Shown here: in pieces, positions 2,146 to 49,058 of the stretch
Layout of the letters: every line of letters starts with the position of its first letter
Position numbering within the stretch: position 1 is the first letter of the stretch
Source: Escherichia coli
GTDB lineage: Bacteria > Pseudomonadota > Gammaproteobacteria > Enterobacterales > Enterobacteriaceae
Length of the DNA: 64,000 nt
Assembly (NCBI RefSeq): GCF_016903815.1
Contig: NZ_CP069972.1
Strand: one strand, 5' to 3'
Notes under the pieces: model-generated
What the model saw: the letters and a program-made list of their open reading frames with translations, nothing else
The model's database searches: none
Told to the model about the DNA's origin: nothing
Made by a program: the position numbers and the translations under genes

Positions 2146-4383
2146 ATGTCGCCATCCCCCTTAATTAAATCCTGTGTGGCCTTTGCCCATACGCAATTCT
2201 ATTCCGGAGTTACTGTGAAAATTTTACTTCGCGCACTCTGTGCAGGCCTTGCTATATCCTCACTGCCGGCAATGGCTTCAGTGACCTATCAGGATATTGT
2301 GTCTGCCGCAACCAATCCTGACGATCTGTCTCGCCAGGCGCTGGTCACGATATTCGGTGATGTAGTCACCAATCCACTGTCAACCAGCGCCCCCACTCTG
2401 ATCGGAAGCATGTTCGGGGCGTTCAACAGTATCATCGCCGTACTTGCCGTTGTCTGGTTTATGTTCATTGGTATCCGTCATGTTGTGCGTTCGGGGCATC
2501 AGGGACAGGTATTCAGCACCGGACGCGATATCGTCGGCACACTGAGTGTCGTTGCAGGTTTTCTGATGATCGTTCCAACCGGAAATGGCTGGAGTATCGC
2601 TCAGCTCATTATGTTATGGGGCGCATCGATAATGGGGGTTGGGTCCGCCAATGTGATGGTGCAACTTGCCGCTGATAATATCGCAAATGGTTATTCAATG
2701 ACTGTACAGCCAGTTCAGGCATCCACACGAACAGCAGCGCGTGGCATTTTTGAAATGGAACTGTGTAAGTATGCGGTTAACGCAGGACTAAATGATTTTA
2801 ATCAGACGGTCAAATCCTCGACTTCACTGATGACAGAATCAGCTAAAACCGCCAGTGGTAATTACACTGTCACGGTATCCAATGGCAGCGGTATCTGTGG
2901 TTCAGCCAGCCTGTCAGTAGAAGGAAACGGAACAACAGATCAATCGACGATTGGAAAATTCTTTAATCCCTTCAGTAAAAACGAATACAGCGGTGTTATC
3001 TCAGCACAACGTGCAGCCATGGATAATATGATTAGCGACATGGACAACGCTGCCAGTGAGTTTGTGACAACATTTCTGGAAAAAAGAAATTCTGGCAACG
3101 GAACATTGCCGGATATCGAGACACGGATTCAGAGAGCAGCCGATGAGTATGAACGCGCTGTACAAAAATCGCTACCTATTGATAACGGAGAACAATCCAG
3201 GAAAGAAGCTCTCAAGTCTTATCTCACAACCTATGGATGGGTGACGCTTGGCGCGTGGTATCAGACCTTTGCCACTGCTAACCAGCGTCTGGCAGAGCTG
3301 GCTGACAGAGCTCCAGCTGTAACTTCAATGTCATCACTTGGGGAAGTTGGCGATACTGATTTATTTAGTGCTGTTATGGGGGCATACAAGACTCAATTAC
3401 AGAACTCCACATATACTCCAACGATAGGAACGATAACAACTCAAGATGAAAGTAATGCAGCTAATAGCACAGACCCACAAAGTGTGGTCATGAAAAGTAT
3501 AGCGCCAACCATATTAAAATGGACAAACCAAGCTGCTACTGAATGGTCAGGAACAGGAACAACCAGCAACCAAGTTAACCCATTAATTAAGATGAAAAAC
3601 ATCGGCGATTATACATTGGGTACAACAGAAATTCTCTGGACAGGATATACAACTGTCAGAGTTCTCGCGACAATGGGTGATAACTCTATTTTCGGAAAGG
3701 CTGTTAATTTGTTCTCTGGATTACCTAAAGGATTTGTTGCTCTGCTGGATGCTGCAGCTCCCCCAATATATTTCTTGTTGTTCCTGTTGTTTTGTGCGGG
3801 TTTTTCCTTATCAATTTACCTACCATTTATACCATTCATTTTCTGGATGACAGGCATTGGGAACTGGATAGTAAGCGTATTAATAGGATGCACCGCCGGG
3901 CCTCTGTGGGCAGCAACACATCTAGGAACATCAGAGGACAGAGGAAGTCGAGCAGCTTACGGATATATATACTTAATTGACAGCATGATAAGACCACCTC
4001 TCATGGTATTCGGTTTCTTTTTTGCCTCTGTCGCCATCATTGCCGTCGGCACAATATTAAACTCACTGTTTGGCGCAGCACTAGTTAACGTACAGGTAAA
4101 ATCATTAACAGGGATATTCAGCCTTGCCGGGTTCCTGCTAATTTACGCCCGTATGTGTACAACGTCTGTAGCTGCAATATTTGCTTTACAAGCATATCTT
4201 CCTGACCATGTTATCAATTTCTTGGGTGGTAGAGATGGTGTAAATACTCTTGGCAACCTCACCTCATCAGTAAAAGATATTTTTGCAGGTTCTAATAGAA
4301 ATATTAGACACAGCCCTGGAGTTAGAGAGGACAGACTAAAAAATGTCACAAAGGATGATAATAAAGATGGAATAAAAGGATAA
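2146..4383 (+). CDS. traY: TraY-like polytopic inner-membrane transfer protein (entry-exclusion target in IncI1)
   Basis: 745-aa ORF with many hydrophobic segments in N- and C-terminal thirds; alternative GTG start at 2215 has a better RBS (GGAG) and gives a signal-peptide-like N-terminus; excA-like gene directly downstream. Confidence 0.55.
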   Translation: MSPSPLIKSCVAFAHTQFYSGVTVKILLRALCAGLAISSLPAMASVTYQDIVSAATNPDDLSRQALVTIFGDVVTNPLSTSAPTLIGSMFGAFNSIIAVLAVVWFMFIGIRHVVRSGHQGQVFSTGRDIVGTLSVVAGFLMIVPTGNGWSIAQLIMLWGASIMGVGSANVMVQLAADNIANGYSMTVQPVQASTRTAARGIFEMELCKYAVNAGLNDFNQTVKSSTSLMTESAKTASGNYTVTVSNGSGICGSASLSVEGNGTTDQSTIGKFFNPFSKNEYSGVISAQRAAMDNMISDMDNAASEFVTTFLEKRNSGNGTLPDIETRIQRAADEYERAVQKSLPIDNGEQSRKEALKSYLTTYGWVTLGAWYQTFATANQRLAELADRAPAVTSMSSLGEVGDTDLFSAVMGAYKTQLQNSTYTPTIGTITTQDESNAANSTDPQSVVMKSIAPTILKWTNQAATEWSGTGTTSNQVNPLIKMKNIGDYTLGTTEILWTGYTTVRVLATMGDNSIFGKAVNLFSGLPKGFVALLDAAAPPIYFLLFLLFCAGFSLSIYLPFIPFIFWMTGIGNWIVSVLIGCTAGPLWAATHLGTSEDRGSRAAYGYIYLIDSMIRPPLMVFGFFFASVAIIAVGTILNSLFGAALVNVQVKSLTGIFSLAGFLLIYARMCTTSVAAIFALQAYLPDHVINFLGGRDGVNTLGNLTSSVKDIFAGSNRNIRHSPGVREDRLKNVTKDDNKDGIKG

Positions 4384-40421: not shown

Positions 40422-40757
40422 ATGAACAGAAAATATTATTTTAATAATATGTGGTGGGGATGGGTGACGGGGGGATATATGCTGTATATGTCATGGGATT
40501 ATGATTTTAAATACAGATTACTGTTCTGGTGTATTTCTCTCTGCGGAATGGTTTTGTATCCAGTTGCAAAATGGTATATTGAGGATACAGCTCTGAAATT
40601 TACCCGGCCTGATTTCTGGAACAGCGGTTTTTTTGCTGATACACCTGGAAAAATGGGATTGCTTGCTGTTTATACGGGTACTGTTTTCATATTATCTCTT
40701 CCGTTAAGTATGATATATACTCTTTCTGTTATTATAAAAAGGCTGTCTGTAAGATAG
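40422..40757 (+). CDS. iia: Colicin Ia immunity protein (111 aa)
   Basis: MNRKYYFNNMWWGWVTGGYMLYMSWDY...; convergent with and immediately downstream of the colicin gene; 111 aa as for Ia immunity (recollection). Confidence 0.8.
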   Translation: MNRKYYFNNMWWGWVTGGYMLYMSWDYDFKYRLLFWCISLCGMVLYPVAKWYIEDTALKFTRPDFWNSGFFADTPGKMGLLAVYTGTVFILSLPLSMIYTLSVIIKRLSVR

Positions 40758-40778
40758 ACAGCCTGTCTTATATTTTAT

Positions 40779-42659
40779 TTAAATACCCCAGAACTTATTC
40801 GCTTTTTCCACAAGCGATTCATCAATCAGCGCACCGGTGACAGCCATCAGTAAACCATACCCGATAATGCCTAAAGCGCTTCCGGTAAGAATACTGAAGA
40901 CCAGTGCAACAAGAGCCGTTGCGGCATTGCCTGCTATAATGGCTTCTGTTTTAACAAAAAGAGGACGCCAGTTCTCTGTCCGGACAGCCTTACCAAACTC
41001 AGTGATCCAGTCAGCAAGACTTGTAAATTTTCCTGCATATCCCAGTCCCCGACTGAATCTGTTCAGATTAGACGATATATCAGACAGCTTCACAGACTCA
41101 AGGGCTGCGGCAATCGCTGCACGATCTTTTGCATTAATTTTTTTGTTAATGTCAGCCCGGTACTTTTCATACGTTTTTAATGCCTCTTCAACATTACGTA
41201 TTTTCTTCCCTTTAGCCTGCCCGGCCATCTCTCTGGCTAACTGCTCAGCTTTTGCACCATATTTTTCTGAAACTGATTTCAGGAACTCTGTTGTGAAATT
41301 AATTGCGTCTTTCGTTTCCTTCAGTTCATCCTGTTTTCTTTTCTCTTCCGCTATCTTCTGATTGATGCCGGCAAGCTGGTTACGGATATTCTCTTTTTCC
41401 TTCAACAGGGCATTAAGAGCGTCATTTGCATGCTTTTGCTCATTTGTTCTGGCACTGAGGTTATTTCTCGCCGAATTTACCGCAGATTCAGCAGAGGTGA
41501 TTTTATTTCTGGCATCAAGCAATCTTTGCCGTAACTTATCCCATTCAGCAACTTCAGCATTATAAATTTTCTTGTCACCTTCCACATCCTCTGTCACCAC
41601 CGGATTCCGGTCATTCAGAATATTGCGTTTATAGTCCAGACCGGAATGGGTCAGAAGATAATTCAGGTTTGCACGGTTATCGATGACTGCGCTGGTTGTG
41701 ATTTTTATCGTACCGGCAAATCTCGGATCACCGCTCACAACAATAGAATGATTTGTTGATGAACGCCCCGGGAATTTTTCAGGGGAAACTATCGTTTTGC
41801 CGTCAGGCGTGTTTTTCTGTTGCGTCAGCTGTTGTTCAGCTCTGGTTAATGCATTACGGGCCGTGTTAAGCGATTCCGTCACTGAACTGAGTTTATTCCG
41901 GGCCTCTGAAATGGCCCTGTCATTCCGTGTCTGCTGCCCGAGCAGACGGGCCTGTTGTGCATCAAGAACGGCAAGGGCTGCCCCGCCATTTTTTTCCAGC
42001 TCTGACAACCGCGTGTCCAGAATACCTTTTCTGCGCTCGTATTCAGCAAGCATATCAGCGGCCTTCTTGTCTGCGTTCTGCGCATCCTTCTGCCGTTTTT
42101 CAGCCTGTTCGATTAACGACCTGGCCTCCCGGGGAGATATACGAAGAGAATCAGCATCAGCAAAGAGCATCCGGCTCTCTGTATGCAGCCGGAGGGCATC
42201 ATATCCGGCGATTTCAGTACGGAATCCGTATTCTCTCAGCTCTGCCTGCAGGAGTCTGAACTCCTGTCGTGTAATATCAGCGGCATCTGCGTTTCCGGCA
42301 CGGAGTGTTTTCAGTGTGTTTTCATCTTTTTCCCTTGCAGCAATCGCCGCAGAGAGGCGTTTTCCGGCTTCAGTACGCTTATTCTCATTCTCTTTCTGCT
42401 GCGCGCTGAGCGTGTTTTTGTACGCTGTGATTTCCTTGTCCCTTTTTTCGATATCACTTCGGGTTGGGGAATCATCAACCCACTCGTTTCCGCCCCAGAT
42501 GGTTTTGTTCCCGAAGGAACTCCATGCAGGCGGGGTACCATGAAAGACATCGACACGTGGAGGGTTTACATAAATATCAACGGCCATAATTTCATGGCCA
42601 TCTGAATCATACCCCAGCGATTCTGCACCGGGATTTGTAATACGTACAGGGTCAGACAT
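40779..42659 (-). CDS. cia: Colicin Ia, pore-forming (626 aa)
   Basis: MSDPVRITNPGAESLGYDSDGHEIMAVDIYVNPPRVDVFHGTPPAW... N-terminus and C-terminal hydrophobic hairpin of the Ia/Ib family; Ia vs Ib call rests on the immunity protein. Confidence 0.85.
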   Translation of the reverse strand: MSDPVRITNPGAESLGYDSDGHEIMAVDIYVNPPRVDVFHGTPPAWSSFGNKTIWGGNEWVDDSPTRSDIEKRDKEITAYKNTLSAQQKENENKRTEAGKRLSAAIAAREKDENTLKTLRAGNADAADITRQEFRLLQAELREYGFRTEIAGYDALRLHTESRMLFADADSLRISPREARSLIEQAEKRQKDAQNADKKAADMLAEYERRKGILDTRLSELEKNGGAALAVLDAQQARLLGQQTRNDRAISEARNKLSSVTESLNTARNALTRAEQQLTQQKNTPDGKTIVSPEKFPGRSSTNHSIVVSGDPRFAGTIKITTSAVIDNRANLNYLLTHSGLDYKRNILNDRNPVVTEDVEGDKKIYNAEVAEWDKLRQRLLDARNKITSAESAVNSARNNLSARTNEQKHANDALNALLKEKENIRNQLAGINQKIAEEKRKQDELKETKDAINFTTEFLKSVSEKYGAKAEQLAREMAGQAKGKKIRNVEEALKTYEKYRADINKKINAKDRAAIAAALESVKLSDISSNLNRFSRGLGYAGKFTSLADWITEFGKAVRTENWRPLFVKTEAIIAGNAATALVALVFSILTGSALGIIGYGLLMAVTGALIDESLVEKANKFWGI

Positions 42660-42937: not shown

Positions 42938-44284
42938 TCAGTACCTGAGATGCATAAAAACACCGTACATATGTTTCTTAAAAGGGGGATGCTCGTTATC
43001 CAGCCATTTCGGTGGATCGGTATGCAGAACACCAATCTGCTTCATGCCGGTATGCTGCCTGGATTTTCTCGCGCAGTAATCACTGTCTTCATATCCCATC
43101 GTTTCGATGACCACTCTGGCCGTCTTTCCGTCAGGAGCCCTTGCTGTGACAATGAAATCCGGCAGTACATATTTCTTTTCACCATTAACATAAACTTCTG
43201 TATCAAACAGGGGCCTTTCCAGACTTAATTCCGGCGTACCTGGCTTTCTTTTAAGCCAGCTGGCCACATTCAGAAGAGCAGTGAGCGTGTTTCGTTCCAG
43301 TTTGCTGTCCACAGGCACCGGACATGTCAGTTGATAAAGAGCATGAGCATACCCTTCACTGCAGATGATTCTGCCATCGGCACTCCGGCAAAAAGCAAGA
43401 ATAACCCAGTAAGGGGGACGTATTCCGCCCTGCGCTTCACCATTAATACTGATCCCCCGCACAGGTCTGATGACCTGAATATTACCGTTCGCCCAGTGAA
43501 TTTCCACAGCATCACGACAGATGTGCTGCGCCATAAAAATCTGAAAGAACATATGCTTTCTTCTGGCAGGCCAGTGTCGTTCTGAATTCTCCAGCGTTTC
43601 CATTAACCGCTCCTGAGACCTTTCAGACATTCCTGGCCGGAAATGGATAATTTCAGATAAGGCTCTTCCCCGAATATACTCCTGCTGTAGTGTAACCTGC
43701 CGTATGGCATCAAGACACTCACGATAATTAGTCCGGATACGGGGATTAGCCAGGGAATCCAGTTTATTCAGCCCTGCATCTTCAATAAGCGACAGGAGTA
43801 AACGGCCAAGGCGCGGACGTTTCTTGCGAACGGAGGAGCGCTCACCATTATGGTAAGCAGAGCGGGCCTGCAGTCTGATAACAGAATTACTGTCATCAGG
43901 TGGTAAAAAGTTTCTGTAATTTATACGGGTGCTAACGGGATGCCGGCTTGCTCCGAAGGATGTTTCCTCTTCATTTCCGGATAACTGACGATACATGGGG
44001 CATTCAGGTGCATGCTCATGATTAAAACTGGACAGATAAAGAGTACCCGTATTGTTTTTAAGAGCAGCAAAATTCATGGCCGGCGAATCTCCCGGAATAC
44101 AGTCACACTGTAACCATGCATCATACTCACGCATTTCCCGGAGAAGATCATTGGCCAGGTTATGTTGTGCCATGGTTGCTGGCCTTTTCAGTCCACAGAC
44201 CGTCTTTACTGCAGTCTCTTCCTCACTGCTAAGCTCCCGAATCACTTTGCCCCGGGGATTCTTCTTTACAAGTATCATTGGCAT
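42938..44284 (-). CDS. Hypothetical protein (448 aa) between colicin and replicon
   Basis: ATG at 44284 with AGGAG upstream; no recognised domain. Confidence 0.45.
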   Translation of the reverse strand: MPMILVKKNPRGKVIRELSSEEETAVKTVCGLKRPATMAQHNLANDLLREMREYDAWLQCDCIPGDSPAMNFAALKNNTGTLYLSSFNHEHAPECPMYRQLSGNEEETSFGASRHPVSTRINYRNFLPPDDSNSVIRLQARSAYHNGERSSVRKKRPRLGRLLLSLIEDAGLNKLDSLANPRIRTNYRECLDAIRQVTLQQEYIRGRALSEIIHFRPGMSERSQERLMETLENSERHWPARRKHMFFQIFMAQHICRDAVEIHWANGNIQVIRPVRGISINGEAQGGIRPPYWVILAFCRSADGRIICSEGYAHALYQLTCPVPVDSKLERNTLTALLNVASWLKRKPGTPELSLERPLFDTEVYVNGEKKYVLPDFIVTARAPDGKTARVVIETMGYEDSDYCARKSRQHTGMKQIGVLHTDPPKWLDNEHPPFKKHMYGVFMHLRY

Positions 44285-44637
44285 AATGAAAGCACTCCTT
44301 ATGTACATGCTTAAACAGTAAGTAAAATATACAAAGAACCCCCCATGAAACAAAGGCAGAGATGAACTGTGCGCCCCGATATCTTCTTCTGATATCCTTT
44401 CAAATGAATTGTTTTTATTTATATCATGACAACATTAAAGTGAGAGAATATATCAACCATGTTTCTGTCAGGGTTCAGTAGAATATCAATTCGACTGTCA
44501 CGCCATAACTGTAACTACCTCGAGTATAAATATTCAGAGAATGGACTTATTAGCCATGAAAAATCACCTGATGGGAAATTTACTAATTTATGGATTGTGA
44601 TATTATTAAAGAGTAAAACCAGCCAGCCGAGGTATTT

Positions 44638-45240
44638 ATGGGAAAAAATCAGGAAGAAAGGAAAACTCCCGTCATTGTGGTGAAAAAACGTCGTACTTTT
44701 TCGCCACCGTCCTTATCCGAAAAAACAGATATTATCGCACCTGTATTTACTGAACAGACGGCAGAATCAGCCCCCGCCGGAATAAATTCATCTGCCGTCG
44801 AAACACATATCCCCGAAGCGCCAGCCAGGAAGAAGAAAAAGAAAAAACGCCGTTTCCCACGTCCCTCCCACTGGACCCGTGAGTATACTCACGAGTGCGT
44901 GGAAAAAATAAAGATCCTGTTTCCTCATCTTCGTGCTGAAGGTGGTGGATTTATTCCCCTGAAAATTGGCATAAACAATGATATTTCAGCATTTCTGGCA
45001 GAACACCCGGAGACAGAACTGACCATGGACGAATGGCTCTGTGCAGTGTCCTGCATCACCTCACGCCGTGTATATCTGCAGCGGACAGCTGTCGCCGGCG
45101 TCCCACGTTATGGTCTGGATGGTCACCCCAAAGGGCAGGTCTCAGACTCTGAAGCACAGAGTGCCGGTCGCAGACTGGCGACATTAGAACAAAAGTTGCT
45201 CAGGATGCAGGCACAGCAGGAGAATATTTCTGGGCAATAA
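44638..45240 (+). CDS. FinO/ProQ-domain RNA-binding protein (FopA-like, 200 aa)
   Basis: Hallmark FinO/ProQ segment ...GFIPLKIGINNDISAFLAEHPE...; basic N-terminal tail with KKKKKKRR. Confidence 0.6.
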   Translation: MGKNQEERKTPVIVVKKRRTFSPPSLSEKTDIIAPVFTEQTAESAPAGINSSAVETHIPEAPARKKKKKKRRFPRPSHWTREYTHECVEKIKILFPHLRAEGGGFIPLKIGINNDISAFLAEHPETELTMDEWLCAVSCITSRRVYLQRTAVAGVPRYGLDGHPKGQVSDSEAQSAGRRLATLEQKLLRMQAQQENISGQ

Positions 45241-45295
45241 ACACTCCTGATAACAGCTGGACATTACGTATCAGAAAAATGGGAAGAGAATTATT

Positions 45296-45805
45296 ATGAG
45301 TAAATCAGGTGCAGAAAAAATTCAATTCATCCTGAATAATCATGAACAGGCATACAGACGCCTGAAGCCTGTATATACTTTTTTAGAACTGGCATCTTGG
45401 ATTTCGGTTGTTCTGCTGATTATATACCTATCAGGCAAGAATCACGTGCTTACAGCAGCTTTTCTCTGCTTTGCATGGACAGCATTCTGGGTTCTTTTCC
45501 TTTTACATTATTTCCCAAAAGTTTTCTTTATTCTCGATCGTCAGAGTCTGCTCAACCTCATGGAGGCCACCAAAGACTCACCAGATGTAAAGCAGGAGCT
45601 GCTTAACCGCCTTTTTTCCGGAAAAAGAATGACCGGGCGGGATGAAATGGATATCTGCCGTCTTCTGAGAAAAAATGAAGAAGAAAAAATCCGTCAGAGT
45701 GAACTGAATATCATCAGGAATTTTATTGATGAACAGCAGTTAACGAATAGTGATATTCCGAAGAAAAGTACGGTTCCAAATGAAGATAAAAAAGGCATAA
45801 GATGA
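45296..45805 (+). CDS. Hypothetical membrane protein (169 aa)
   Basis: Two N-terminal TM helices, charged C-terminal tail. Confidence 0.4.
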   Translation: MSKSGAEKIQFILNNHEQAYRRLKPVYTFLELASWISVVLLIIYLSGKNHVLTAAFLCFAWTAFWVLFLLHYFPKVFFILDRQSLLNLMEATKDSPDVKQELLNRLFSGKRMTGRDEMDICRLLRKNEEEKIRQSELNIIRNFIDEQQLTNSDIPKKSTVPNEDKKGIR

Positions 45806-46499
45806 TATGAAATTAATAACCAGGCAAGCAGAGGATGGCGTGGTTTCATCCTAAGATTGATAGGGGTTAACCTGTAAGATAAAAGGACCGTGTTTACACG
45901 ACGTCTCTGAAGGGCTTCGTTTGGGAAACGGACAATATCTAACTGACGAGGAAATTAAATAAGGGTTTAAAAATTAACGCACCATATATTATACACAGTA
46001 TATAACGATTCAGATATCGTCACCAGGATATGCCGCGTCAGCGGCATGGAAGGCGGCACGCTGTGGTTACATGTGATACCGGAGTAAAACCGCCGAAGCC
46101 CGGCGTAAGCCGGTACGGATTGATAGATTTCACCTTACCCATCCCCAGCCCTGCTAGACCATACCCGTTTTCAGTCATGACAGAGCTTCTGTGCGCGGTC
46201 GGAGTGGTCCCGACAAGGGTTTACCCGCAGTCGGGGCGTATCTCCGCGTTAGCGGGCCGTAAGGGCCGCTTACGAGCGTGTACTGAGGACTTCCAGCCAG
46301 AAGACTGGCAGCGATGACAATGTAGTTACAACATTCATAATTAAAAGCGATGTTGTTCCCGCCCTTTGGGCGGGGGCGGCCTCGCTTTTCAGTTATGAGG
46401 GGTGGGCACGGTGCTGCGTTTGTGTGGTGTTTTTATTCCTGATGTTTTTTTGTTGTGGTTTCAGAACGGTGAGGTTCGGGGCCCGCGCGTCAGCGTGGG

Positions 46500-46870
46500 A
46501 GGTGCTTTTAGATTCTGAGCGGCGCGGCCTTGGCCGCTGCAAGCGAAGGCCTCTTTGTATTTGTTCACAGTGGTCTCAGAGATAAAGATTTTCCCTGCGG
46601 CGAAGCAACGCAGGGGATTAAATAATGGGGTTAAGACTATATTGCAGGTTTGCTGTTTCAGGTTTGCAGCTTCTTAAAGTTCTTTGTTTGCGGATTTATG
46701 TGGATAACTGAAACAACGTGGCCATGTTCTGATGACTGATGCGTGGTTTTATGGGCAGATATGCCCCTCTGAGGGGATTTAAGGTGACTACTAAGGATTT
46801 TGGGCTGAGCGGAATCTGCGCCGAAAGCCCCGGAGGGGCTGGCGATGATTCAGTGCTGAGGGAATGATGC
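46500..46870 (-). other. Replication origin region (oriV and CIS-like sequence) downstream of repZ
   Basis: Perfect DnaA box TTATCCACA (reverse complement at 46699-46707) about 170 bp downstream of repZ stop; GC-rich hairpins. Confidence 0.55.
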
Positions 46871-46873
46871 TGT

Positions 46874-47905
46874 CTAGTGCGGTGGCGGGGCAGCCAGCGT
46901 CAGTTCAAGCTGACGCAACTCCCTGATGGCCAGTCGCTTCAGATGGTCATCGGAACAGAAATAGGCTTCATCCGGCGGCAGACGCTTCCGGAGATGCTCA
47001 GCCATCTCATAAATCTGCTGGTCAACAGGTAATTTCTTCAGGCGGTTGGCACGCTTGCTGGCTGCGGCTTTTTCTCGGCGCTTCTTCAGGGCATCCTGGC
47101 TGCGCTGCAGATACCAGCGTTTTCTGGCCGCATGAACGGAGATATCTTCATCCTCACGCAGAACACCTTCCCGAATGAGCTGCTGGCGGATTTCACTTTC
47201 ACGCAGTCGTTTCTGCTGCTGTTCGTGAAGTTTTACCATGTCGACGCCCAGCATCTGCCAGCCTGCCGGTGTTATCCAGACGTAACGTGGCAGACGCTGA
47301 CGATGTTCACGGTCCCACATTGTTTCCTCTGACACACCCAGCACACCAAAGCGCACCTGTTCGGCCAGCAGACGGGAAAGACGGGAGACCGTCACTTCCA
47401 GTTCCGGAATAACATGTCCCTCGCTGTCTTTCGGGCTGATTTCTTCAGCCAGCCGAGTGACGCTCATCCCCACGGTATGTGTGCCGGCATCACTGAAGCT
47501 GACCAGAACCGGCCAGATGGCATCGAGGAGACGTTGTTTTTCCGGCCGGAAAGCGTATTTGCGACCGACGAACGTCCGTTTCTGTACATAAAAAGGATGC
47601 CGCGACATGCGCATGCGCAGGCTCTGCTCGCCGGTCACCGGGTCCTTTTTCACCAGACGGTTATAGGCGTGCCCAAGCTGCCCTTTCAGCGCTTTATAGC
47701 GCTCAGGACGATACCAGGACGGATTTTCGCATTTGGGTTTGGTGGAGTGCTCACCGCGACGGCGCTTCGTGCGCTTCCTTTCCGGTTCAACCAGGAAAGT
47801 GGTCGCCCTTCCCGCTTCATAGTCTTCCCAGAAACGGATCTGCTCTTCGGGTGCTAACTGACTCCAGTGTACTGCGTTATATGGAGTATTCTTCAGACCT
47901 GCCAC
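46874..47905 (-). CDS. repZ: Replication initiator RepZ (343 aa, GTG start coupled to repY)
   Basis: GTG at 47905 lies 7 nt before the repY stop; 343 aa as ColIb-P9 RepZ (recollection); the 358-aa track ORF starts at an upstream GTG. Confidence 0.8.
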   Translation of the reverse strand: MAGLKNTPYNAVHWSQLAPEEQIRFWEDYEAGRATTFLVEPERKRTKRRRGEHSTKPKCENPSWYRPERYKALKGQLGHAYNRLVKKDPVTGEQSLRMRMSRHPFYVQKRTFVGRKYAFRPEKQRLLDAIWPVLVSFSDAGTHTVGMSVTRLAEEISPKDSEGHVIPELEVTVSRLSRLLAEQVRFGVLGVSEETMWDREHRQRLPRYVWITPAGWQMLGVDMVKLHEQQQKRLRESEIRQQLIREGVLREDEDISVHAARKRWYLQRSQDALKKRREKAAASKRANRLKKLPVDQQIYEMAEHLRKRLPPDEAYFCSDDHLKRLAIRELRQLELTLAAPPPH

Positions 47906-47982
47906 AAGCTGTCGCTTATGGCGGAGCGATTGTGCCGTGTATTTATACACTGCACAGGGTTGAATCTCTGGTACGGTTTCAT
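47893..47982 (-). CDS. repY: Leader peptide RepY (29 aa)
   Basis: ATG at 47982 to TGA at 47893 encodes MKPYQRFNPVQCINTRHNRSAISDSLWQV; stop overlaps repZ start region. Confidence 0.65.
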   Translation of the reverse strand: MKPYQRFNPVQCINTRHNRSAISDSLWQV

Positions 47983-47994
47983 TATACTTTACCC

Positions 47995-48070
47995 GTATTC
48001 TGTGAGGCCCCCACTATCTTTCGTCGTTCCGCCAAGTTCGTAAGAAAGATAGTGGGGGTTTTCCTTTTAT
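47995..48070 (+). ncRNA. inc: Inc antisense RNA (about 70 nt) of the repZ replicon
   Basis: Promoter TTGAAT-17-TATACT (47960-47988); 15-bp stem CCCCCACTATCTTTC/GAAAGATAGTGGGGG with loop containing CGCCAA, then T-run; antisense to repZ leader. Confidence 0.6.
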
Positions 48071-49058
48071 GGCTTCCGGAACATCTTCAGTCTTCTGACT
48101 TACTGCCCGTACATGCCATCTCTCCTGAATGCCTTATGGCGCATTCTGCCGTCCGGCTTTCGCCGCTTTGCTCCACAGAGTGCCACCCTCTGCACAGCTA
48201 ATAACAGCCGAAATATACCCGCTTTACGTTAATTTGAAAAGCATTACAACGATCTCTTCTCTTCCAGTGCCTCCTCACTGATACCTCTAATAAGTTAATC
48301 TTGACCTGCGTCAAAAAAATAAAATCTATTTTTAAAAGCAGATTTTTCTGCTTTAGATCTTTCTTTTGGATTAAAAGATCGACTTTTGTCCTACTCACGA
48401 TCATTTATCTTACAACCGATCTACCTAACAGAATAATATTCTGTTTTAATGCAATTAAACGATCTAAATAACCTTTAAAAAATCATTTTGTAGATCATTC
48501 GATCGTAAATAGAATAATTCTTAGATGATAAAACCATTTGTTACACAACCCGCCAATTGTGTAACAACAGCCTCTACAAGAGCATATTTGTTCATATGTT
48601 CGTCAGAACTGCGGATTGTCTGGACGAGGGTCAGACACCGTTTCGTGCATATGGACCAGCATGTTCGAACGCCACAAAGCAGAAGCATCATGCCTGGATC
48701 GCTTCGGCGCGGAGCGTTAAGTTTTGACGCTTTTTTGTATGTTTTTTAAGCTGTTAGTTGACTCGGTGCGTTATACTAAGTACCCTTTACTGGTCACAGG
48801 CAAAACTGTGATCGGGCGTAGGAACCCGCGTAGTCATCGTCGGCGCAGAAGTTAATTTCTTCATTTGGCGTCGTTTTTTGCCATACCATAAAGACAGGAA
48901 CTTGTATTTCTTGTCGTCATCTATGGTAGCTCAGGCGGGGCAGGCATTAGCCTGGCCGGTTTCCGATGACGCCGGTATTCCTACCCCCGTCTGGGCTATC
49001 ACCAATGAGCGTAGGAACTCGGTGATAGCGTTTTTAGTTGTCATCGGAGACCGTTGCT

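What the first reader, a model, noticed from the sequence alone, without database searches (positions are those of the whole stretch)
45880..46330. GC-rich, hairpin-dense non-coding segment between the 169-aa membrane protein gene and oriV
Seen in sequence: about 450 bp with many short GC stems (for example CCGGC-GTAA-GCCGG, GTCGG...CCGAC, CCCGCCC-TTT-GGGCGGG); the only long ORF (46030-46317) has implausible composition. The DnaA box I take as the origin lies about 400 bp further on. Inference: a structured ncRNA, a primosome assembly site, or decayed coding sequence; I cannot decide which.
Basis: seen in the sequence. Interest (0 to 1): 0.4.

Follow-up and report, generated by a model that had tools for sequence, protein, structure and literature searches.

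The report
Plasmid leading-strand priming site and terminus
This hairpin-rich stretch is the already known non-coding replication module that sits just past the origin of IncFII and IncI-type plasmids: a site where host primase starts the leading strand, plus a Tus-binding terminus that stops the fork after one round.

Summary
The hairpins are real. The + strand of 45990-46345 folds better than all 100 shuffles (z = -3.7). "GC-rich" holds only for 46025-46330 (58% against a window mean of 50%); 45880-45989 is AT-rich, lineage-specific spacer.

Window 45990-46407 is a block present in more than 5000 enterobacterial plasmids. It is 91.6% identical to R100 90141-90557, the "repA4 region" between oriR and tir. 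Its parts are:
- conserved + strand hairpins with compensatory changes;
- an invariant CTG (46151-46153) inside the motif CTGCWAAGCYA;
- a perfect Ter core (46323-46336, - strand) oriented to stop forks arriving from the repZ/ori side;
- a covarying terminator-like hairpin (46343-46389).

That motif, derived from the plasmids, hits the phage G4 genome once, exactly at its annotated primer start. A nine-base form of it also marks the alpha3 and phiK G-H intergenic regions.

The 95-aa ORF is open only in this lineage; it is broken in all 19 homologues examined. There is no Rfam, Pfam or NCBIfam match.

Verdict: this is the known plasmid G site (primase-dependent leading-strand start) plus the terRR-type terminus. 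The exact primer start and the role of the near-invariant core 46196-46282 are inferred. Low interest.

The parts
45880..45989 (.). Lineage-specific AT-rich spacer after the 169-aa gene. It is not part of the conserved module. It holds a terminator-like hairpin on the - strand (45902 to 45887).
   Evidence: Only about 273 of the 5000 best plasmid records cover at least 80% of the 45800-46420 query, which includes this stretch; all others start at 45990 or later. G+C is 38%. Terminator-like site.
45990..46407 (+). Conserved post-origin module, called the 'repA4 region' in IncFII plasmids. It is shared by IncFII, IncFIA/FIC, IncI1/B/O, IncK/Z and IncI-gamma replicons.
   Evidence: At least 5000 plasmid records match at 90-100%. 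It is 91.6% identical over 418 bp to R100 90141-90557, between oriR and tir. Homologues at 68-84% identity occur in Klebsiella, Entomohabitans, Serratia and Erwinia.
46030..46047 (+). Hairpin H1 (ATGCCGC-GTCA-GCGGCAT), on the template 5' of the primer start.
   Evidence: -8.9 kcal/mol. The hairpin is kept in distant homologues with changed sequence (Serratia ATGCGC/GCGCAT).
46052..46094 (+). Long hairpin H2 (GGCGG...CCGCC) with a variable interior.
   Evidence: The stem is kept through changes on both sides (GGCGCC/GGCGCC in Entomohabitans, K. michiganensis L030 and Erwinia; GGCGAC/GTCGCC in Serratia) while the interior diverges.
46100..46113 (+). Hairpin H3 (CCGGC-GTAA-GCCGG). It resembles the top of stem-loop I of phage G4 (GGCGAAAGCC).
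   Evidence: The loop base varies (GTAA/GTCA) while the stem is kept.
46151..46161 (+). Proposed primer-start motif CTGCTAGACCA (family consensus CTGCWAAGCYA). Primer RNA would start opposite T46152 and run towards lower coordinates, away from the origin.
   Evidence: CTG at 46151-46153 is invariant in all 20 aligned homologues. The consensus motif hits the G4 genome once, at 3996-4006, which is the annotated primer start/origin (expected 0.03). The 9-mer CTGCWAAGC occurs once each in alpha3 and phiK, in the G-H intergenic region just after a stem-loop like G4 stem-loop I. The stretch is unpaired in the centroid fold.
46200..46246 (+). Hairpin SL-A, a 16-bp interrupted stem. It is part of the most conserved core (46193-46282).
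   Evidence: There are compensatory changes in the middle and top stems (C-G to A-T, A-T to G-C, G-C to C-G), and 98-100% of cells are paired. A conserved T-G pair and sporadic G-T pairs occur on the + strand only (24 G-T against 1 A-C).
46247..46274 (+). Hairpin SL-B (GTAA-type loop), followed by GTACTG at 46281-46286.
   Evidence: -11.3 kcal/mol on the + strand against -7.8 on the - strand. Eight of 10 pairs never vary and only the loop base varies. Part of this invariance is ascertainment, because the scan pattern lies at 46257-46276.
46321..46343 (-). Tus-binding Ter site, homologous to terRR of R1/R100: 5'-ATTATGAATGTTGTAACTACATT-3' on the - strand. Its fork-blocking face points towards the origin and repZ.
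   Evidence: It is the only zero-mismatch match to GNRNGTTGTAACKA in the 64 kb. TAGTTACAACAT is kept in 18 of the 20 homologues, with one base changed in two. Polarity was calibrated on E. coli TerB next to tus. R1 ter function: PMC10331603.
46343..46389 (.). Hairpin with an A-tract before it and a T-tract after it (looks like a two-way intrinsic terminator), between Ter1 and the origin.
   Evidence: -17.0 and -15.3 kcal/mol. Strong covariation: CCCGCCC/GGGCGGG, CCGGCCC/GGGCCGG, CCGGGCC/GGCCCGG (helix 10: 9 and 4 double changes).
46447..46469 (+). Degenerate remnant of the second Ter site (terRL of R100). It reads GTTGTGGT here instead of GTTGTAAC.
   Evidence: In alignment A1, the R100-type sequences L002 and L004 have GTGTGTTGTAACTAAAGT at this position, while the window, IncK2/Z, FIB and IncI-gamma sequences do not. 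No match with up to 2 mismatches exists here.
46699..46707 (-). DnaA box of the origin. repZ lies at 46874-47950 on the - strand, upstream of it. Given as context.
   Evidence: The repZ leader pseudoknot (Rfam PK-repZ) scores 194.5 bits at 47918-48066.

Best explanation
Window 45990-46407 is the cis-acting, non-coding module that follows the origin in the IncFII / IncI-complex replicon family, historically called the repA4 region of R100/NR1/R1.

Proposed mechanism:
1. RepZ and DnaA open the origin (DnaA box 46699-46707) and DnaB unwinds towards lower coordinates.
2. The + strand, which is the leading-strand template for that fork, becomes single-stranded and folds into conserved hairpins (46030-46113 and 46200-46274).
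3. Host primase DnaG, with SSB, starts a primer at the invariant CTG (46151-46153). This is a 'G site'. The leading strand then runs away from the origin.
4. After one round the fork returns through repZ and the origin and is stopped by Tus bound to the Ter site at 46321-46343. The blocking face of that site points towards the origin. This prevents displacement of the new strand's 5' end, over-replication and rolling-circle forms.
5. The hairpin at 46343-46389 probably ends transcription that enters from either side.

Shown here: the homology, the conserved structure, the strand bias, the Ter core and its orientation, and the start motif shared with phage origins.

Inferred: the exact primer start, the actual primase and Tus activity, and the role of the nearly invariant core 46193-46282.
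For: - Homology: 91.6% identity over 418 bp to R100 90141-90557, between oriR and tir. The same block is in at least 5000 plasmids. Its near edge lies about 470 bp past the repA stop in both the window and the R100-type plasmid L002.
- Literature on the homologous R1/R100 region: two ter sites lie between oriR and the start site of leading-strand synthesis. terRR stops the fork after a round, and loss of Tus gives multimers and rolling-circle forms (PMC10331603). The repA4 region holds the ter sites and matters for stability, and transposon mutagenesis listed it as required for maintenance of pEC958 (PMC4398462).
- Ter: a perfect core, unique in the window, conserved across genera. Polarity follows from TerB next to tus plus the established fact that TerB halts clockwise forks.
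- G site: an invariant CTG within CTGCWAAGCYA. That plasmid-derived motif hits G4 once, at the annotated primer start. CTGCTAAGCC follows the stem-loop in the G-H intergenic regions of alpha3 and phiK.
- Structure: fold z = -3.7. 92.5% of pair cells are paired against 34-45% when partners are slid, and 14 pairs change on both sides (0 of 500 shuffles reach this).
- Strand: 24 G-T against 1 A-C in SL-A/B, and the + strand is more stable (-23.9 against -18.6 kcal/mol). The + strand is the leading-strand template for a fork moving away from repZ.
- Position: the R100 equivalent of the CTG (about 90395) lies roughly 365-380 bp past the end of a 188-bp oriR that starts at the DnaA box. This fits my recollection of Masai & Arai 1989 and Jiang et al. 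1993 (about 380-400 bp downstream of oriR).
Against: - No experiment on this plasmid was available, and the primary G-site papers (Masai & Arai 1989; Nomura et al. 1991; Tanaka et al. 1992, 1994; Jiang et al. 1993) could not be read here. The link between 'G site' and particular bases therefore rests on my own mapping.
- There is no significant overall sequence similarity to G4 oric or to the F ssiA region. Only an 11-nt motif is shared. In the window it has two mismatches to the consensus (AGAC for AAGC). R100 reads CTGCCAGACCA, which has three.
- Two other GTACTG sites (consensus at 46113-46118, which reads TACGG in this window, and 46281-46286) could be the start instead. Each is kept in only about half of the homologues.
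- The most conserved core (46193-46282) lies 3' of the proposed start on the template. This is unlike G4, where all three stem-loops lie 5' of it.
- A DnaB helicase moving from the origin towards the G site would meet the blocking face of Tus-Ter1. How initiation gets past it is not explained by my model.
Confidence: 0.85

Rival explanations
1. The near-invariant core 46193-46282 (SL-A and SL-B) is a separate cis-acting element, not part of the primase signal. It could be the determinant of stable inheritance reported for the repA4 region, or a binding site for a host or plasmid factor on single-stranded or cruciform DNA. This does not exclude the main explanation for the rest of the block.
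For: It is the most conserved segment: 84% identity to the window in the six distant homologues, against 46-77% for the other segments, with 46 of 90 columns invariant. It lies 3' of the invariant CTG, outside what a G4-like signal would need. Insertions in repA4 destabilised pEC958 (PMC4398462). From memory, Jiang et al. 1993 found instability without a protein product.
Against: Twenty of the invariant columns were fixed by the scan pattern used to find the homologues. From memory, Tanaka et al. 1994 described the R100 G site as two separated domains with highly conserved blocks, which this core could simply be. The + strand-specific G-T pairs fit a template-strand signal.
Confidence: 0.2
2. 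The hairpins form a PriA-dependent (phiX174-type) primosome assembly site rather than a primase-only G site.
For: The region is hairpin-rich single-strand-capable DNA next to an origin. Such sites have no sequence consensus, so they cannot be excluded by sequence.
Against: The shared CTGCWAAGC start motif is that of the primase-only origins of G4, alpha3 and phiK. The homologous R1 site is remembered as primed by primase alone (Masai & Arai 1989, from memory). The folded strand is the leading-strand template, whereas primosome assembly sites usually serve the lagging strand.
Confidence: 0.06
3. The block encodes a structured small RNA read on the + strand and ended by the hairpin at 46343-46389.
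For: Conserved hairpins show compensatory changes and a + strand G-U bias. A terminator-like hairpin with a conserved T-run lies downstream. One paper reports RT-qPCR signal with 'repA4' primers (PMC11237657).
Against: There is no Rfam match at E <= 1. The only promoter-like site in 45700-46900 overlaps Ter1, its -35 element is not conserved, and shuffles give as many. The block's position and Ter content tie it to replication. The core is conserved at the sequence level more than an RNA structure would require.
Confidence: 0.05
4. The region is a real or decayed protein gene: the 95-aa + strand ORF, or the - strand repA4 ORF of R100.
For: An open 95-aa frame exists at 46030-46317. R100 has a 128-aa ORF across the region. 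Some records annotate short 'RepA4' proteins or hypothetical proteins here.
Against: The 95-aa frame is interrupted by stops or frameshifts in 19 of 19 homologues. It is open here only because consensus TACTG reads TACGG, which removes a TGA stop. Indels of 1-2 nt occur within the block. No Pfam or NCBIfam match exists. No reading frame stays open across the block in all homologues.
Confidence: 0.03

Closest known systems
G site and ter region ('repA4 region') downstream of oriR in IncFII plasmids R100/NR1 and R1
   Same: Direct homologue: 91.6% identity over 418 bp. The order is the same: repA, DnaA box/origin, ter, priming region, then accessory genes. The terRR-type Ter site, the covarying hairpin, the hairpin core and the invariant CTG are all the same.
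   Different: The Rep protein and the origin proper are of the IncI1/B/O (repZ) type and do not align with R100 beyond 46407. The second Ter site (terRL) is degenerate here. The neighbouring genes differ: a 169-aa membrane protein and a ProQ/FinO-family gene instead of tir and pemIK.
Origin of complementary-strand synthesis of phages G4, alpha3 and phiK (primase-only priming)
   Same: CTG start within CTGC(A/T)AAGCC. Hairpins lie on the template 5' of the start. One hairpin top (GGCGTAAGCC) resembles G4 stem-loop I (GGCGAAAGCC). The proposed mechanism is the same: SSB-coated single strand, primase alone.
   Different: No significant overall similarity. In the phages the stem-loop abuts the start, whereas here the nearest strong hairpin is 37 nt away. 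The most conserved hairpins lie on the other (3') side of the start.
Tus-Ter replication fork barriers (E. coli TerA-J, R6K ter)
   Same: The core GAATGTTGTAACTA matches the consensus, including the G at position 6. The action is polar, and the site serves to prevent over-replication of a circle (PMC10331603).
   Different: There is a single site right next to a unidirectional origin, not a pair forming a trap. R100 keeps the pair.
ssiA of plasmid F (priming signal next to oriV-2/repE)
   Same: A single-strand initiation signal next to a plasmid origin (PMC4398462). It carries a G4-like CTACTG after hairpins on the bottom strand (read from the sequence).
   Different: No detectable sequence similarity to the window block. 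It belongs to a different replicon family (iteron-type RepE).

Membership tests
Plasmid G site / ter module of IncFII-IncI replicons (R100, R1) | Sequence homology to the R100 segment between oriR and tir | tested here: met
   91.6% identity over 418 bp, E = 4e-173. At least 5000 plasmid records share the block.
Plasmid G site / ter module of IncFII-IncI replicons (R100, R1) | Position downstream of the origin, beyond the ter site(s), on the leading-strand template of the fork that moves away from the rep gene | tested here: met
   The order is repZ 47950-46874, DnaA box 46707-46699, Ter 46343-46321, CTG 46153-46151. The folded strand is the + strand. A primer made on the + strand extends towards lower coordinates, as the G4 annotation shows.
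Plasmid G site / ter module of IncFII-IncI replicons (R100, R1) | Priming on SSB-coated single-stranded DNA by DnaG primase alone | not testable with these tools
   Needs an M13 origin-defective plaque assay or in vitro priming.
Plasmid G site / ter module of IncFII-IncI replicons (R100, R1) | 5'-CTG-3' start site with limited homology to phage G sites near the start (as I remember from Tanaka et al. 1994) | tested here: met
   The CTG is invariant in 20 of 20 homologues. The consensus motif hits G4 only at its primer start, and its 9-nt form hits the alpha3 and phiK G-H intergenic regions once each.
Tus-binding Ter site | Match to the core consensus GNRNGTTGTAACKA, including G at position 6 | tested here: met
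   Zero mismatches at 46323-46336 on the - strand, the only such site in 64 kb.
Tus-binding Ter site | Orientation consistent with arrest of the fork that has completed a round | tested here: met
   The 5' end of the GTTGTAAC strand faces the origin. The same end of TerB faces incoming clockwise forks in MG1655. That TerB blocks clockwise forks is established knowledge.
Tus-binding Ter site | Tus binding and polar fork arrest | not testable with these tools
   Needs a gel shift or two-dimensional gels in tus+ and tus- hosts.
Phage G4-type complementary-strand origin | Overall sequence similarity and three stem-loops immediately 5' of the CTG | tested here: not met
   No blastn or Smith-Waterman similarity above shuffles. 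Three hairpins exist 5' of the CTG, but the nearest is 37 nt away, and the strongest conserved hairpins lie 3' of it.
phiX174-type primosome assembly site (PriA) | PriA-dependent ATPase and primosome assembly on the hairpin; no sequence consensus | not testable with these tools
   No sequence criterion exists.
Known non-coding RNA families (Rfam 15) | Covariance-model match | tested here: not met
   No match at E <= 1 within 45880-46400. The matches in the 5-kb scan lie at 47918-49000.
Protein-coding gene (95-aa ORF / repA4) | Reading frame kept in homologues; match to a protein family | tested here: not met
   The frame is broken in 19 of 19 homologues. No Pfam or NCBIfam match.

The most novel reading that the evidence does not exclude
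The nearly invariant double hairpin 46196-46282, which folds specifically on the + strand and lies between the Ter site and the primer start, may be a distinct and still uncharacterised single-stranded-DNA element. It could help DnaB or primase get past or wait at Tus-Ter, or it could be the unexplained stability determinant of the repA4 region. Under this reading it is not merely one of the conserved blocks of the known G site.
Probability: 0.15. Interest if true: 0.5.

Novelty: already known. Interest (0 to 1): 0.15.

Why it matters
The finding mainly matters for annotation. Thousands of clinically relevant IncF and IncI resistance plasmids carry this roughly 420-bp block. In the records listed, annotation pipelines leave it blank in most and call spurious 'hypothetical protein' or 'RepA4' genes in others. 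Recognising it as a priming site plus terminus explains why it is so conserved and why insertions there destabilise plasmids. It also gives a compact sequence signature: Ter, the hairpin core and CTGCWAAGCYA. Two details are small but may be useful. IncI-complex plasmids keep only one of the two ter sites found in R100. It is also unexplained how the initiating helicase passes the blocking face of that site.

Tried and rejected
- Rfam scan of 44000-49000 at E <= 1: nothing in the region.
- blastn of the block against 50,697 phage records: no match.
- Smith-Waterman and blastn against G4 oric and the F ssiA region: not above shuffles. Shared 6-mers showed no collinear blocks.
- Pfam and NCBIfam on all ORFs of the region: nothing.
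- First guess for the primer start, GTACTG at 46281-46286 after SL-B. Second guess, consensus TACTG after hairpin H3 (46114-46118). Both were demoted because their CTG is kept in only about half of the homologues, whereas CTG 46151-46153 is invariant.
- Promoter scan: one weak site overlapping Ter1, not conserved, and no more than shuffles give.
- A search for a second Ter site in the window found none with up to 2 mismatches.
- Attempts to read the primary papers failed because they are not held. These were Tanaka 1992 NAR, del Solar 1998, Jiang 1993 and Lilly & Camps 2015. Literature searches for G site and ssi terms gave mostly irrelevant hits.
- The G4 oric query against phages returned only close G4 relatives, so alpha3 and phiK were fetched by accession instead.
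- GC skew was not used. With unidirectional replication no sign change is expected, and local gene orientation dominates.

Full report
**Setting**

The window is an IncI1/B/O-type conjugative plasmid. Positions 45800-46900 are 100% identical to E. coli E41-1 plasmid p2. repZ lies on the - strand at 47950-46874. Its leader pseudoknot matches Rfam PK-repZ at 194.5 bits. The DnaA box TTATCCACA is at 46699-46707 on the - strand. The finding therefore lies downstream of the origin in the direction of repZ transcription.

**Checking the observation**

The named hairpins exist. As single-stranded DNA, 45990-46345 folds better than every one of 100 dinucleotide shuffles on either strand. The + strand gives z = -3.73 and the - strand z = -2.69.

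'GC-rich' is true only for 46025-46330: 57.8% against 49.9% for the window, about the 87th percentile. 45880-45989 is 38% G+C.

The 95-aa ORF is real as an open frame.

**What the block is**

All of them share window 45990-46407 at 90-100% identity (a subset starts a little further in, at 46023-46034). The 5000 best hits are listed mainly under Escherichia, Klebsiella, Salmonella and Shigella, and the records I fetched are typed IncFII-type, IncFIA/FIB/FIC, IncK2/Z, IncI-gamma/K1 and IncI1/B/O. Only about 273 records also cover the left part of the finding.

In R100 (NC_002134) the block is 90141-90557, 91.6% identical over 418 bp. It lies between the origin (repA1 stop 89669, DnaA box 89845) and tir (90608). 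This is the segment historically called repA4.

A genome-wide pattern scan brought in homologues at 68-84% identity from K. pneumoniae ATCC 13883, K. michiganensis, Entomohabitans, Serratia and Erwinia. The Entomohabitans copy lies next to a RepZ-like gene (68% identity) with DnaA boxes and Ter sites. To the left of the block each lineage carries different genes: tir-pemIK, yacAB, relE/phd, or here a 169-aa membrane protein. So 45990 is a module boundary.

**Not coding, not a known RNA**

The 95-aa frame is interrupted in all 19 other homologues. It is open here only because the consensus TACTG reads TACGG, which removes a TGA stop. The alignment has 1-2 nt indels. R100's own 128-aa 'repA4' frame is not open in the window. 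No Pfam or NCBIfam family matches any ORF of the region. No Rfam family matches at E <= 1. No convincing promoter is present.

**Anatomy on the + strand** (alignments A1-A3)

- 46030-46113: three hairpins. The stems are kept through compensatory changes while the interior of the second hairpin is free to vary.
- 46114-46192: a less structured stretch. It holds an absolutely invariant CTG (46151-46153) within CCTG[C/A][A/T]AAGC[C/T]A.
- 46193-46282: the most conserved part, two hairpins (46200-46246 and 46247-46274). It is 84% identical to the window in the six distant homologues, against 46-77% for the other segments. Forty-six of 90 columns are invariant, of which 20 are fixed by my scan pattern.
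- 46321-46343, - strand: a Ter site.
- 46343-46389: a hairpin with an A-tract before it and a T-tract after it.

For the whole proposed structure, 92.5% of pair cells are standard pairs, against 34-45% when the partners are slid by 1-3 columns. Fourteen pairs change on both sides, and 0 of 500 shuffles reach this. In the core, G-T pairs occur 24 times on the + strand against one A-C. The + strand is also the more stable (-23.9 against -18.6 kcal/mol). So the + strand is the one that folds.

**The Ter site**

GAATGTTGTAACTA at 46323-46336 on the - strand is the only zero-mismatch match to the Ter core in 64 kb. It is kept in 18 of the 20 homologues, with one base changed in two.

To fix its polarity I read E. 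coli TerB in MG1655. It lies on the + strand just upstream of tus as AATAAGTATGTTGTAACTAAAGT. TerB halts clockwise forks, which is established knowledge, so the 5' end of the GTTGTAAC strand is the blocking face. In the window that face is at 46343, towards the origin and repZ. The site therefore blocks forks that travel from the repZ/origin side towards lower coordinates.

R100-type sequences carry a second, inverted Ter (GTGTGTTGTAACTAAAGT) nearer the origin. In the window and in the IncK2/Z, FIB and IncI-gamma sequences of the alignment this position reads GTTGTGGTTTCAGAAC and no longer matches.

A 2023 review describes R1 in exactly these terms. Two ter sites lie between oriR and the start site of leading-strand synthesis. 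terRL stops the counter-clockwise fork at once, and terRR stops the clockwise fork after it has copied the plasmid. Without Tus, multimers and rolling-circle forms accumulate (PMC10331603). The window's site is the terRR homologue.

The pEC958 study states that the repA4 region contains the ter sites and matters for stability. Its transposon mutagenesis listed repA4 among the elements required for maintenance (PMC4398462).

**The priming site**

From memory, not readable here:
- Leading-strand synthesis of R1 is primed by primase alone at a 'G site' about 380-400 bp downstream of oriR (Masai & Arai 1989; Jiang et al. 1993).
- Plasmid G sites share conserved blocks with each other but only limited homology with phage G sites near the primer start (Tanaka et al. 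1994).

I tested the second point. The motif CTGCWAAGCYA, derived only from the plasmid alignment, occurs once in the 5577-nt G4 genome, at 3996-4006. The record annotates the primer RNA at 3970-3997 and the origin of complementary-strand synthesis at 3998. Chance expectation is 0.03, and 5 of 200 shuffles have a match.

The 9-nt form CTGCWAAGC occurs once each in alpha3 and phiK. In both it lies in the G-H intergenic region, right after a stem-loop like G4 stem-loop I (GGAAGGCGTTAGCCGCCTTCC-CTCCTGCTAAGCC). K. pneumoniae ATCC 13883 carries the exact G4 11-mer.

The window reads CTGCTAGACCA and R100 reads CTGCCAGACCA.

A primer made on the + strand grows towards lower coordinates, as the G4 annotation shows. 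That is away from the origin, in the direction expected for this replicon family. The R100 equivalent of the CTG (about 90395) lies roughly 365-380 bp beyond the end of a 188-bp oriR that begins at the DnaA box. This fits the remembered distance.

I therefore take T46152 as the most likely primer start, with confidence of about 0.6-0.7. Two GTACTG sites (46113-46118 in the consensus, and 46281-46286) are weaker alternatives, because their CTG is kept in only about half of the homologues.

**Mechanism, with shown and inferred steps**

Shown:
- homology to the R100 module;
- conserved + strand hairpins;
- the Ter core and its orientation;
- the start motif shared with primase-only phage origins.

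Inferred:
- DnaB loaded at the origin unwinds leftwards.
- The + strand folds, and DnaG with SSB primes at the CTG.
- The leading strand runs around the plasmid.
- Tus at 46321-46343 stops the returning fork about 170-190 bp short of the new strand's 5' end, which prevents strand displacement.
- The hairpin at 46343-46389 shields the module from transcription.

Unexplained:
- How the initiating helicase passes the blocking face of Tus-Ter1.
- Why the strongest conservation lies 3' of the start.

**Comparison and novelty**

This is a member of a known module, the IncFII/IncI-complex G site plus ter. It works like the primase-only origins of G4-type phages, but it is not a sequence relative of them beyond the start motif. 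It shows no similarity to F ssiA.

Nothing here is new in kind. The minor points are the loss of terRL in the IncI-complex lineage, the lineage-specific spurious ORF, and the striking invariance of the double-hairpin core.

Interest is low (0.15).

Noticed in passing
window 48780-49000 (+): Rfam matches to C4 antisense RNA (65.2 bits, above its gathering score, cut by the end of my scan range), to its a1/b1 targets (32.9 bits) and to isrK (31.6 bits), about 1 kb upstream of repZ. This looks like a P1 c4-type antisense RNA locus on the plasmid.
   Followed up: no
L009 (plasmid F, NC_002483) 40560-40860, - strand: F carries a decayed copy of the same block about 3 kb from its RepFIB rep gene. 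A 39-bp stretch is 85% identical to window 46244-46282, with further recognisable pieces, but the CTG motif and the Ter site are missing.
   Followed up: partly
window 46447-46469; L002 2973 and 3170; L005 2165: The origin-proximal Ter (terRL) of R100-type plasmids is degenerate in the window and in the IncK2/Z, FIB and IncI-gamma sequences. R100-type and IncK2/Z plasmids have a further GTTGTAAC about 40 bp from the DnaA box, which the window lacks.
   Followed up: partly
window 45989-45997 (+): A one-mismatch DnaA box (TTATACACA) sits exactly at the left border of the conserved block. A paper on mini-R1 calls a nearby site 'DnaA-box3' and reports a mild copy-number effect when it is mutated (PMC5883639). 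One-mismatch boxes are not enriched in the window (20 found against 14 expected).
   Followed up: partly
window 45887-45902 (-): A terminator-like hairpin followed by a T-run on the - strand lies just after the 3' end of the convergent 169-aa gene. It may end leftward transcription leaving the replication module.
   Followed up: no
L010, L011, L012, L017-L019, L024, L025: Contigs carrying this E. coli-type plasmid block at 88-96% identity are filed under genomes or MAGs of Lachnospiraceae, Clostridiales, Collinsella, Streptomyces morookaense, Ignatzschineria and Sporosarcina. This is most likely contamination or mis-binning of enterobacterial plasmid contigs.
   Followed up: no
   Followed up: no
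L013, L015, L021, L022, L026 (Rhizobium); L014 (Boseongicola), L027 (Methyloceanibacter): The 20-nt scan pattern CCGTNAGGGCCGCTTACGAG also occurs in several Rhizobium genomes and in two other alphaproteobacterial MAGs, with no similarity beyond 21-22 nt. It is either a chance match or an unrelated conserved sequence in Rhizobium.
   Followed up: no
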